A stretch of 64,000 nt of DNA from Escherichia coli O157:H7 (GTDB taxonomy: Bacteria > Pseudomonadota > Gammaproteobacteria > Enterobacterales > Enterobacteriaceae): NCBI RefSeq assembly GCF_013167455.1, contig NZ_CP038328.1; one strand, given 5' to 3'. The position numbers were made by a program. How positions within the stretch are numbered: the first letter of the stretch is position 1; each line of letters begins with the position of its first letter. Shown piece after piece: positions 21,001 through 24,000 of this stretch.

Positions 21001-24000
21001 CTGTACCAGTCTTTCGACATCCTCTTCCTGCATTGCGGCAACCTTCACCGGATCGAACTGATGAAAGCAGGCGCGATAGTTTTCGCGTTTTTTGAGGACG
21101 GTGATCCACGATAACCCAGCCTGCTGCCCTTCCAGGCAGATCATTTCGAACAGTTTTTTCCTGTCAGTTTCAGGCACGCCCCACTCATTATCATGGTAGG
21201 CAATATAAAGCGGGTCCTGACTCACCCAGCCGCAACGTTCCATACTTTCCCTCGCTATGTACCCGATCGTAAAAATTTCAGCCGCTTTTCTTGACGCATC
21301 GGTGAAAAAGTCAATATTTAATACAGGGCTACTATGCCCGATATCCTTCATACAATGACAATAATATTGCCGAATTCGGCTCTTCCCTGGAGTCGTGTTA
21401 ATGATCATAAAAAAAAGCGGTGGTCGCTGGCAGCTAAGCCTGCTGGCGAGTGTGGTAATCAGTGCCTTTTTTCTCAACACAGCTTACGCCTGGCAACAAG
21501 AATATATCGTTGATACGCAACCCGGGCATTCCACAGAGCGTTACACCTGGGATAGTGATCATCAACCTGATTACAACGATATTTTGTCGCAACGTATTCA
21601 AAGTAGCCAAAGGGCGCTGGGACTGGAAGTCAATCTGGCGGAAGAAACCCCTGTGGATGTGACCAGCAGTATGAGTATGGGCTGGAATTTTCCTTTATAT
21701 GAACAGGTTACAACTGGCCCGGTCGCGGCATTACATTACGATGGCACAACCACCTCGATGTATAACGAGTTTGGCGACAGTACTACCACGCTGACCGATC
21801 CGTTATGGCATGCCAGCGTGAGTACCTTAGGCTGGCGTGTTGACTCCCGGCTTGGCGATCTCCGACCCTGGGCGCAAATCAGCTATAACCAGCAATTTGG
21901 CGAGAATATCTGGAAGGCGCAATCAGGCCTGAGCCGGATGACGGCGACAAACCAGAACGGCAACTGGCTGGATGTCACCGTAGGCGCTGATATGTTGCTC
22001 AATCAAAATATTGCCGCCTATGCCGCGCTATCTCAGGCAGAAAATACCACTAACAATAGCGATTATCTGTATACGATGGGGGTTAGTGCCAGATTTTAAC
22101 GTAACAATCACAATTGAAACCATTGAATAACAATAGTTGTGGCGATAGTGGGTGCTAACTTACCAAATAATAAATTTGGTGAATAATTGTCGCGTCATTC
22201 ATTCCTGAACTAAGGCATTTCATTCCGTTCTGATGGCATTTCATGCCGTTTTTCCCCAGGCATAAAGTGCACTTCGTTATGGTTGTCGGCAGAGATTTTT
22301 CCTTTTTATTACTGCAGGAATACTGCCATGACACCTTCAAATTATCAGCGTACCCGCTGGTTGACACTCATCGGTACTATCATTACCCAGTTTGCGCTGG
22401 GGTCGGTTTATACCTGGAGCCTGTTTAACGGCGCGCTTTCCGCCAAGCTGGATGCGCCGGTAAGCCAGGTCGCTTTCTCTTTCGGCTTGTTAAGTCTGGG
22501 GCTGGCAATATCGTCTTCTGTTGCGGGCAAATTGCAGGAACGTTTTGGTGTTAAACGCGTCACCATCGCTTCCGGCATTTTGCTGGGATTAGGGTTCTTC
22601 CTGACAGCGCATTCTGACAACCTGATGATGCTGTGGTTAAGCGCCGGTGTGCTGGTCGGTCTGGCGGATGGCGCGGGTTACCTGCTGACGCTCTCTAACT
22701 GCGTGAAATGGTTCCCGGAGCGTAAAGGTCTGATCTCCGCGTTCGCTATCGGTTCTTATGGTCTGGGTAGCCTGGGTTTCAAATTTATCGACACGCAGCT
22801 GCTGGAAACGGTCGGTCTGGAAAAAACCTTTGTGATTTGGGGAGCGATTGCGCTGGTGATGATTGTTTTCGGCGCAACGTTAATGAAAGACGCACCAAAA
22901 CAGGAAGTGAAAACCAGCAATGGTGTGGTGGAGAAAGATTACACGCTGGCAGAGTCGATGCGTAAACCGCAGTACTGGATGTTAGCGGTAATGTTCCTGA
23001 CTGCCTGCATGAGCGGCCTGTACGTGATTGGGGTAGCGAAAGATATCGCCCAAAGTCTGGCACACCTTGATGTGGTTTCTGCAGCCAATGCAGTCACTGT
23101 TATTTCCATCGCCAACCTTTCAGGTCGTCTGGTGCTGGGCATTCTGTCTGACAAAATCGCCCGTATCCGTGTTATCACCATTGGTCAGGTAATTTCGCTG
23201 GTGGGTATGGCGGCCCTGCTGTTTGCACCATTGAATGCAGTGACGTTCTTTGCAGCGATTGCCTGCGTGGCATTTAACTTTGGCGGCACTATTACCGTCT
23301 TTCCGTCACTGGTCAGTGAGTTCTTCGGCCTCAATAACCTGGCGAAAAACTACGGTGTGATTTACCTCGGTTTCGGTATCGGTAGCATTTGTGGTTCGAT
23401 TATCGCCTCACTGTTTGGCGGCTTCTATGTGAAGTTCTACGTCATCTTTGCTCTGCTGATTCTGTCATTGGCGCTTTCTACGACGATTCGTCAGCCAGAG
23501 CAGAAAGTATTGCGTGAGGCGCATATTTAGCCAGAAACTACAGGTTTTGAACGAAAGGGGGAGGAAATCCTCCTTTTTTATTGCATTTTAAAGAATAAAA
23601 ATGAAAATATTTTATCTTATTATTTGCGTGGTGAATGTTTTTGTTTTGTTTAATTGGTATTTTATATTTATTTATTCCTAAAAATAAACGATAGCTTTTT
23701 ATGTGAAAATGTAATGCAATGATTTTTTTAAGATTTGAAATTGGATGCGCTATTAATATATTATTCGTATAATTTTATTATTCGTATTTCATTGTATAAT
23801 CCTTCCTTCAAAGTTGTCGATTTTAATACATCAAGATTTTCTTTTTAATGTAATTTTTTAAATGGAGTTTTTCATGAAAAAGGTCGTTTTTGCCTTAACC
23901 GCACTGGCGTTAACTTCTGGCACTGTATTCGCAGCAGAGTCTGGTGACGGCACGGTTAAATTTACAGGCGAGATCGTGGATTCACCTTGCGTACTGTCCG

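What the first reader, a model, noticed from the sequence alone, without database searches (positions are those of the whole stretch)
22214..22244. Perfect 10-bp direct repeat with 11-bp spacer upstream of yhjX
GGCATTTCAT occurs twice (22214..22223 and 22235..22244), one helical turn-plus apart, about 85 bp upstream of the yhjX start. This matches the LytTR-type response-regulator (YpdB/PyrR) site known for the pyruvate-responsive yhjX promoter. It shows the yhjX regulatory region is intact even though the downstream flank has gained a fimbrial operon.
Basis: partly seen in the sequence, partly recalled or inferred. Interest (0 to 1): 0.3.

Follow-up and report, generated by a model that had tools for sequence, protein, structure and literature searches.

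The report
Known YpdB/PyrR site at yhjX promoter
The two GGCATTTCAT repeats are the already published docking site where the pyruvate-responsive regulator YpdB (PyrR) switches on the transporter gene yhjX, here unchanged in an E. coli O157:H7 genome, so the finding is correct but ordinary.

Summary
GGCATTTCAT occurs exactly twice in the window, at 22214-22223 and 22235-22244 on the + strand. The copies start 21 bp apart, and the second ends 83 nt before the yhjX ATG at 22328.

The window is E. coli O157:H7, nearly identical to EDL933. Window 22191-22248 matches 58/58 the K-12 yhjX-promoter oligonucleotide used for YpdB binding kinetics (PMC4847170). That paper calls the upstream copy site A (high affinity, required) and the downstream copy site B (low affinity, cooperative).

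EDL933 carries intact ypdA and ypdB, and both proteins are 100% identical to K-12. The yhjY-yhjX intergenic region differs from K-12 at 2 of 232 positions, both far upstream of the sites. The lpf1 fimbrial island begins 6 bp before the yhjX stop codon and leaves the promoter untouched.

Minor additions:
- Each site is really a 13-nt box followed by an 8-nt gap.
- A third, degenerate box lies in phase 21 bp upstream of site A.
- About a third of E. coli genomes lack the exact site A; sampled ones carry TGCATTTCAT.
- The same motif pair sits next to LytS/LytTR systems in Paenibacillus, Clostridia, Limosilactobacillus and a spirochaete. The similarity to Bacillus subtilis LytT was already noted in the literature.

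The parts
22214..22226 (+). YpdB/PyrR site A: core GGCATTTCAT (22214-22223) plus conserved 3' flank TCC. This is the high-affinity site that must be occupied first.
   Evidence: Exact match. In PMC4847170 Table 1 the 'A' mutant oligonucleotide replaces this upstream copy, and mutating it abolished YpdB-D53E binding. The flank TCC is invariant in 16 enterobacterial genera, although the search pattern did not require it.
22227..22234 (+). Variable 8-nt gap between the two 13-nt boxes. It is part of the 11-bp spacer between the 10-mers.
   Evidence: The sequence is not conserved across genera while the length is fixed. The geometry matches the B. subtilis LytT site, 13-nt boxes separated by 8 nt (PMC5626966).
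22235..22247 (+). YpdB/PyrR site B: core GGCATTTCAT (22235-22244) plus conserved 3' flank GCC. This is the low-affinity, cooperative site nearest the core promoter.
   Evidence: Exact match. PMC4847170 reports a KD of about 21 nM with fast on and off rates, and binding that needs site A occupied. The 41-mer across it is present in 5396 of 5426 E. coli genomes.
22193..22205 (+). Conserved upstream box CGTCATTCATTCC. It is a degenerate third copy (9 of 13 to site A) exactly 21 bp upstream of site A. Its function was not tested here.
   Evidence: TTCAT-CC is invariant in 16 genera and was not part of the search pattern. It lies inside the published SPR probe. PMC4847170 notes that flanking DNA influences expression.
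22248..22252 (+). Conserved T-run (GTTTT) directly after site B.
   Evidence: T66-T69 of alignment A2 are invariant across 16 genera.
22278..22283 (+). Inferred -10 hexamer TATGGT, 33 nt after site B. No good -35 lies 16-18 bp upstream, which fits an activator-dependent promoter. This is an inference, not a mapped start site.
   Evidence: TAT(G/C/T)GT is conserved at a fixed distance in Enterobacteriaceae. At 32-33 nt after site B, Paenibacillus and a Spirochaeta have TATAAT. The generic sigma-70 scan found no promoter here.
22328..23530 (+). yhjX, the regulated gene. [quoted passage not shown]
   Evidence: Annotation of the identical EDL933 sequence. 395/399 identical to K-12 YhjX. TIGR00890 at 475 bits. 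Literature.

Best explanation
[quoted passage not shown] The published mechanism for the identical K-12 sequence runs as follows. Extracellular pyruvate above roughly 600 uM activates the LytS-type kinase YpdA/PyrS. In uropathogenic E. coli the kinase BtsS can also signal to YpdB. Phosphorylated YpdB binds site A with high affinity, and a second monomer then binds site B cooperatively. This permits RNA polymerase recruitment and a pulse of yhjX transcription, after which B and then A are cleared (the 'AB-BA' model). The following points are inferred here rather than shown. The sites are centred about 21 bp apart, on one face of the helix. Site B ends 33 nt upstream of a conserved TATGGT that is probably the -10 element, and there is no recognisable -35, which explains the dependence on an activator. 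In O157:H7 the circuit should work as in K-12, because the promoter, YpdA and YpdB are all unchanged.
For: Exact repeats at the stated coordinates. 58/58 identity of window 22191-22248 to the PyhjX SPR probe, with the published statements on sites A and B, affinities and sequential binding. Pyruvate dependence and yhjX as the target gene, and BtsS-YpdB cross-talk. Gene context yhjY-yhjX confirmed by 100% identical annotated O157:H7 records. ypdA and ypdB are intact in EDL933 and identical to K-12 at the protein level. Both the promoter and ypdAB are present in 5422 of 5426 complete E. coli genomes. The motif pair lies about 112 nt upstream of YhjX orthologues in roughly 29 enterobacterial species, with flanks conserved that the search pattern did not require. 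No Rfam RNA family overlaps the region.
Against: Nothing contradicts it. Several limits apply. No experiment exists here for O157:H7 itself. The original footprint and mutagenesis paper could not be read. The transcription start and the -10 element are inferred from conservation only, and the generic promoter scan did not call them. The repeat by itself is not statistically unusual. Cross-species invariance of the 9-mer cores is partly circular, because loci were retrieved by exact match to those cores.
Confidence: 0.95

Rival explanations
1. The repeat is a chance duplication of a 10-mer in an AT-rich intergenic region and has no function.
For: About 2 exact >=10-bp direct repeats at offsets of 11-40 bp are expected per 64 kb by chance, and 7 are seen, so one alone is unremarkable.
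Against: The sequence is identical to an experimentally characterised binding site whose mutation abolishes binding. It is conserved with fixed spacing across enterobacterial genera while the 8-nt gap between the boxes varies. It also recurs next to LytS/LytTR genes in other phyla.
Confidence: 0.01
2. The site is intact but the circuit is inactive or rewired in O157:H7. Possible causes are an inactive regulator pair, or disturbance of yhjX expression by the lpf island, which replaced the 3' end of yhjX and its downstream flank.
For: The lpf1 island replaces 152 bp of K-12 sequence, including the last four yhjX codons and whatever terminator followed them. No O157:H7 expression data were found.
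Against: YpdA and YpdB in EDL933 are 100% identical to K-12. The promoter from site A to the ATG is identical to K-12. YhjX is full length apart from its last residues. YpdB-dependent yhjX induction works in another pathotype, UPEC UTI89.
Confidence: 0.03
3. The repeats are chiefly the target of a regulator other than YpdB, for example the paralogous LytTR regulator BtsR.
For: The two pyruvate systems are functionally interconnected, and BtsS/BtsR activity lowers yhjX expression under some conditions.
Against: The published cross-talk runs through the kinase BtsS to YpdB, and yhjX induction is lost in a btsS ypdB double mutant. BtsR and YpdB are treated in the literature as recognising separate motifs in their own target promoters, yjiY and yhjX, and the yjiY promoter fragment served as the control DNA in the YpdB SPR assay. 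From my own knowledge, not checked here, the BtsR motif is ACC[G/A]CT[C/T]A with a 13-bp spacer.
Confidence: 0.01

Closest known systems
YpdB (PyrR) binding site in the E. coli K-12 yhjX promoter (Fried et al. 2013, J Bacteriol 195:807; Behr et al. 2016, PMC4847170)
   Same: Identical sequence over the whole 58-nt published probe. Same motif, same 11-bp spacer, same downstream gene, and identical regulator proteins.
   Different: Only the host strain (O157:H7 instead of K-12), two substitutions more than 85 bp upstream of site A, and an lpf1 fimbrial island downstream of yhjX.
B. subtilis LytT site in the pftAB promoter (Charbonnier et al. 2017, PMC5626966)
   Same: Two direct 13-nt boxes separated by 8 nt, giving a 21-bp period. 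It is bound by a LytTR regulator of a pyruvate-responsive LytS-type system and controls a pyruvate transporter. The authors themselves note the similarity to the YpdB site.
   Different: A different phylum and a different transporter family (LrgAB-type PftAB). CcpA also acts at that promoter. The box sequence could not be compared here because it is given only in a figure.
BtsR (YehT) site in the yjiY/btsT promoter of E. coli
   Same: A paralogous LytS/LytTR pyruvate-sensing system. By recollection it also has a direct-repeat architecture, and it controls a pyruvate transporter gene.
   Different: A different motif and spacer (by recollection, ACC[G/A]CT[C/T]A with 13 bp; not verified with the tools), a high-affinity sensor, and cAMP-CRP dependence.
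AgrA sites in the S. aureus P2/P3 promoters (general LytTR architecture)
   Same: Two repeats of 9-11 nt separated by 11-13 nt, upstream of a weak core promoter, with DNA bending on binding of two regulator molecules (as summarised in PMC4847170).
   Different: An unrelated consensus sequence, a quorum-sensing input and different target genes.

Membership tests
YpdB/PyrR operator of the yhjX promoter | Two direct copies of GGCATTTCAT separated by 11 bp | tested here: met
   Exact copies at 22214-22223 and 22235-22244. The motif is as stated in PMC4847170.
YpdB/PyrR operator of the yhjX promoter | Sequence identity to the experimentally bound DNA fragment | tested here: met
   58/58 identity of window 22191-22248 to the SPR probe 'yhjX YpdB bs sense'.
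YpdB/PyrR operator of the yhjX promoter | Located upstream of yhjX, on the same strand | tested here: met
   The yhjX CDS is at 22328-23530 (+), 395/399 identical to K-12.
YpdB/PyrR operator of the yhjX promoter | Cognate ypdA/ypdB (pyrS/pyrR) present and intact in the genome | tested here: met
   These genes are not in the window. In EDL933, which differs from the window by 7 SNPs and one indel, ypdA and ypdB lie at 3313810-3316256 and are not flagged as pseudogenes. Their proteins are 565/565 and 244/244 identical to K-12.
YpdB/PyrR operator of the yhjX promoter | Physical binding of phosphorylated YpdB and pyruvate-dependent activation | not testable with these tools
   Shown in the literature for the identical K-12 sequence. 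No data exist for O157:H7.
LytTR response-regulator binding sites in general | Two direct or inverted repeats of 9-11 nt separated by 11-13 nt | tested here: met
   10-nt repeats with an 11-nt spacer. The definition is quoted from PMC4847170.
LytTR response-regulator binding sites in general | Position just upstream of a weak, activator-dependent core promoter | tested here: inconclusive
   A conserved TATGGT lies 33 nt after site B and no -35 match is present. No mapped transcription start could be retrieved.

The most novel reading that the evidence does not exclude
The most novel reading not excluded concerns the YpdB-type operator as a whole: 13-nt boxes [G/T]GCATTTCAT[T/G]CC with a 21-bp period. 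It may be an ancient, almost unchanged LytTR recognition element shared by LytS/LytTR systems across phyla, placed in front of three unrelated families of known or putative pyruvate transporters. The systems seen were in Enterobacteriaceae, Chromobacterium, Paenibacillus, Clostridia, Limosilactobacillus and a Spirochaeta. The transporter families were YhjX-type MFS, CstA/BtsT-type and LrgA-type. On this reading the enterobacterial promoter would also carry extra conserved boxes that could be additional YpdB contacts shaping the pulse-like expression: an in-phase upstream box at 22193-22205, and in some genera an inverted copy GGCATGAAATGC between site B and the -10. The first part only extends a similarity already noted between YpdB and B. 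subtilis LytT. The second part is untested.
Probability: 0.3. Interest if true: 0.35.

Novelty: already known. Interest (0 to 1): 0.08.

Why it matters
The finding confirms that the pyruvate-sensing PyrSR-to-yhjX circuit described in K-12 is preserved base for base in enterohaemorrhagic E. coli O157:H7, despite acquisition of the lpf1 fimbrial island immediately downstream. This is useful for annotation, and it supports applying K-12 regulatory knowledge to EHEC, where pyruvate sensing is discussed in connection with gut colonisation. It does not open a new question. The comparative by-products could guide motif-based prediction of LytTR regulons: the 13-nt box definition, natural variation at position 1, and recurrence of the motif in other phyla. 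These are incremental.

Tried and rejected
1. The repeat finder on 22100-22330 did not list the GGCATTTCAT pair; it reported other short families. The pair was verified with the DNA search and by direct reading instead.

2. The generic sigma-70 scan gave one promoter-like site, at 22160-22187 upstream of the YpdB sites, no more than chance (1 found, 1.0 expected). It found nothing downstream of site B. I rejected that site as the yhjX promoter. I first considered CATAAA/TAAAGT (22261-22268) as the -10, then dropped it in favour of TATGGT (22278-22283), because only the latter is conserved at a fixed distance across genera and phyla.

3. Fried et al. 2013 (PMC3562098), the primary paper, is not held.

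4. An inverted repeat between 22201-22213 and 22309-22321 (85% complementary, 95 nt apart) was treated as chance.

5. Of the 120 loci returned by the genome scan, most have neither a YhjX homologue nor a LytS/LytTR pair nearby, and I treat them as chance matches of an AT-rich 18-base pattern. One case with a weak two-component-system hit (L096) has an unrelated downstream gene and was also dismissed. L115 likewise has only a weak hit, and I dismissed it on the look of its downstream ORF, which was not searched.

6. Rfam found nothing in 21800-24000, so an RNA-element explanation was dropped.

Full report
**Observation**

Reading the window shows GGCATTTCAT at 22214-22223 and again at 22235-22244 on the + strand. 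A pattern search finds these as the only two exact copies in the 64 kb on either strand. The eight one-mismatch matches elsewhere are no more than shuffles give. The spacer is 11 bp and the start-to-start distance is 21 bp.

The annotated yhjX start codon is at 22328, so 83 nt lie between the second copy and the ATG. The repeat extends to 13 nt: GGCATTTCATTCC and GGCATTTCATGCC.

The repeat is not statistically striking by itself. The window holds seven exact direct repeats of >=10 bp at offsets of 11-40 bp, against a mean of 2.0 and a maximum of 5 in Markov simulations. Significance has to come from other evidence.

**Identity of the locus**

Window 21300-24400 is 100% identical to many E. coli O157:H7 chromosomes, including EDL933. 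There it is annotated yhjY, yhjX, lpfA1. Over the full 64 kb the window differs from EDL933 by seven substitutions and one indel, near 51008 in bcsC.

The surrounding genes are xylR to yhjE in the K-12 order, apart from the lpf operon.

**Comparison with the published site**

Behr et al. [quoted passage not shown] Their wild-type SPR oligonucleotide, without its G/C clamps, is 58/58 identical to window 22191-22248.

- The 'A' mutant oligonucleotide replaces the upstream copy, so site A is 22214-22223 and site B is 22235-22244.
- The phosphomimetic YpdB-D53E gave two binding events, one of about 1.2 nM with slow kinetics and one of about 21 nM with fast kinetics.
- Inactivating site A abolished binding. 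Inactivating site B left a single event.
- The authors propose sequential, cooperative binding followed by rapid clearance (the 'AB-BA' model), which would produce pulsed yhjX expression.

yhjX is described as the only direct YpdB target. It is induced at external pyruvate of about 600 uM or more. YpdA/YpdB were renamed PyrS/PyrR, and RefSeq K-12 now uses those names. In uropathogenic E. coli the kinase BtsS also signals to YpdB to induce yhjX, after serine deamination or acid stress. The primary paper, Fried et al. 2013, is not in the held library.

**Is the circuit complete in this organism?**

The regulator genes are not in the window. In EDL933 they lie at 3313810-3316256, in the order alaC-ypdA-ypdB-ypdC, and are not flagged as pseudogenes. 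The EDL933 YpdA protein is 565/565 identical to K-12. The O157:H7 YpdB protein is 244/244 identical to K-12; this was measured on strain Rafaela_II, and EDL933 carries the same protein accession.

K-12 pyrS-pyrR DNA matches 5422 of 5426 complete E. coli genomes, and the 232-bp intergenic region likewise matches 5422 of 5426.

Against K-12, the intergenic region differs only at window 22107 and 22125, more than 85 bp upstream of site A. YhjX is 395/399 identical over the aligned part.

Colinearity with K-12 ends at window 23524, six bases before the O157 yhjX stop codon, and resumes at 29428. The 5.9-kb lpfA1-lpfE island therefore replaces 152 bp of K-12 sequence, including the last four yhjX codons, and it leaves the promoter untouched.

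**Anatomy from comparison**

- Thirty-three loci have a YhjX homologue downstream on the same strand.
- In 27 of these the homologue is 81-99% identical to E. coli YhjX. They are mostly Enterobacteriaceae, and in them the pair starts about 112 nt before the ATG. The genera include Citrobacter, Enterobacter, Leclercia, Lelliottia, Kosakonia, Cedecea, Shimwellia, Mangrovibacter, Phytobacter, Pluralibacter, Silvania, Pseudescherichia and E. albertii.

An alignment of 16 of these promoters shows invariance that the search pattern did not impose:

- the 3' flanks, TCC after site A and GCC after site B;
- a T-run after site B;
- an upstream box TTCATnCC at window 22198-22205, exactly 21 bp before the same letters of site A;
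- a TAT(G/C/T)GT at window 22278-22283.

The first base of each 10-mer varies between G and T, and the eight bases between the 13-nt boxes are not conserved. This is the geometry reported for B. subtilis LytT, two 13-nt boxes separated by 8 nt. [quoted passage not shown]

I infer that TATGGT is the -10 element. It lies 33 nt after site B, and Paenibacillus and a Spirochaeta have TATAAT 32-33 nt after their site B. No -35-like hexamer lies 16-18 bp upstream of it, which fits an activator-dependent promoter. This is inference only: the generic promoter scan did not call it, and I found no mapped start site.

**Variation within E. coli**

In three sampled strains from the more divergent promoter classes, site A reads TGCATTTCAT. 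One of them also has GGTATTTCAT at site B.

A 41-mer designed so that every 28-base word spans site A is found in 3616 of 5426 genomes. The equivalent 41-mer for site B is found in 5396. So about a third of E. coli genomes lack the exact site A. Given the sampled strains, this is probably because of the G-to-T change at its first base. The 'perfect 10-bp' repeat is thus a feature of part of the species; the shared core is GCATTTCAT.

One strain, DX6, has an IS1 inserted inside site B with a TGGCATTTC target duplication, which separates site A from the promoter.

**Beyond the Enterobacteriaceae**

Several matches outside the family are not chance.

- In five Paenibacillus species, orthologues of YpdA (56-63% identity) and YpdB (58-61%) end about 6 nt before the motif pair, which precedes a YhjX homologue (46-47%).
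- Chromobacterium subtsugae has YpdA and YpdB orthologues (56% and 60%) on the same strand, with the motif pair about 450 nt after ypdB and a YhjX-like fragment at the edge of the locus.
- Clostridium arbusti and Romboutsia weinsteinii have a ypdAB-like pair next to the motif. In Romboutsia the downstream ORF resembles CstA-type transporters.
- A Spirochaeta MAG has a LytS/LytTR pair (35%) and a 588-aa downstream ORF that also resembles CstA-type transporters.
- Two Limosilactobacillus species have GGCATTTCAT-N11-GGCATTTCAT between a LytS/LytTR pair (32-35%) and a 134-aa downstream ORF that resembles LrgA.

The CstA-like and LrgA-like labels rest on my reading of the translated ORFs; no family search was run on them. 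They extend, but do not change, the published view that LytS/LytTR systems controlling pyruvate transporters share a similar operator.

**Alternatives**

- A chance repeat is excluded by the published binding data and by conservation.
- A silent circuit in O157:H7 is unlikely, because all parts are identical to K-12. It has not been tested experimentally.
- Binding mainly by the paralogue BtsR is not supported. Cross-talk is reported at the level of the kinase, and the literature treats the BtsR and YpdB motifs as separate, each in its own target promoter.
- No Rfam family matches the region.

**Verdict**

The feature is the known YpdB/PyrR operator of yhjX, with nothing unusual about it in this genome. 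Interest is low.

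Noticed in passing
window 22193-22205: A conserved box CGTCATTCATTCC lies exactly 21 bp upstream of site A, in phase with sites A and B. It is 9 of 13 identical to site A. TTCATnCC is invariant in 16 enterobacterial genera although the search pattern did not require it. It may be a third, weak YpdB contact or the 'flanking region' said to affect expression.
   Followed up: partly
window 22258-22269; L020, L026, L074, L078 and others: Between site B and the inferred -10, several genera carry GGCATGAAATGC, the exact reverse complement of the site B box. These include Enterobacter, Pseudescherichia and Kosakonia; Phytobacter has a one-mismatch copy, GGCGTGAAATGC. Together with site B it forms a 12-bp inverted repeat. 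In E. coli it is degenerate (GGCATAAAGTGC). It could be an inverted third site, but its function is unknown.
   Followed up: partly
window 22214 (site A, first base); loci L006, L007, L009: About a third of complete E. coli genomes (1810 of 5426) lack the exact 28-mer across site A. Three of three sampled divergent strains have TGCATTTCAT there, and one also has GGTATTTCAT at site B. The shared core is therefore the 9-mer GCATTTCAT.
   Followed up: partly
L005 3135-3912 (E. coli DX6, NZ_CP126345.1): An IS1 is inserted inside YpdB site B of the yhjX promoter, with a 9-bp target duplication TGGCATTTC. It moves site A about 0.8 kb away from site B and the promoter, so this is a natural promoter disruption.
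   Followed up: partly
L030, L032, L036, L082, L120 (Paenibacillus); L114 (Chromobacterium); L021, L071 (Clostridia); L055 (Spirochaeta); L024, L091 (Limosilactobacillus): The same motif pair, GCATTTCAT-N12-GCATTTCAT, lies downstream of LytS/LytTR gene pairs: directly after them in Paenibacillus, and within about 450 nt in Chromobacterium. In Paenibacillus and Chromobacterium these pairs are 56-63% identical to YpdA and YpdB. Downstream genes are YhjX homologues in Paenibacillus (a partial match in Chromobacterium), ORFs resembling CstA in Romboutsia and Spirochaeta, and ORFs resembling LrgA in Limosilactobacillus; the last two labels are by eye only. The high identity between phyla suggests horizontal transfer of a ypdAB-operator-yhjX cassette. 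Similarity to B. subtilis LytT was already noted in PMC5626966.
   Followed up: partly
window 23525-29427: The lpf1 island (lpfA1, lpfB, lpfC, a fimbrial protein gene, lpfE) replaces 152 bp of K-12 sequence between yhjX and eptB. Its left junction is 6 bp before the yhjX stop codon, so YhjX is 400 aa with a different C-terminal residue, against 402 aa in K-12. lpfC is annotated as a pseudogene (internal stop) in EDL933. Only 428 of 5426 genomes cover at least 80% of a query that includes this lpfA1 allele.
   Followed up: partly
window 22328-23530: RefSeq names YhjX 'L-lactate MFS transporter' because it passes the NCBIfam equivalog NF049980 (SfMCT; 342.6 bits, cut-off 320). [quoted passage not shown] The annotated name goes beyond the evidence.
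   Followed up: partly
window about 51008 (bcsC); also bcsQ about 43800-44500: The window differs from EDL933 by an indel in bcsC, which is annotated as frameshifted in EDL933. bcsQ carries an internal stop in EDL933. The cellulose synthesis operon therefore appears to be decayed in this lineage.
   Followed up: no
window 49387-49432: A short tandem repeat of GCTGGCGGT units lies within a coding region; an 18-bp run is repeated at an offset of 18. By coordinate mapping it falls in the bcsZ/bcsB region, and it was not examined further.
   Followed up: no
window 23754-23792: A direct repeat TTATTCGTAT with a 17-bp period lies in the AT-rich yhjX-lpfA1 intergenic region, inside the island and upstream of lpfA1. 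It was not examined.
   Followed up: no
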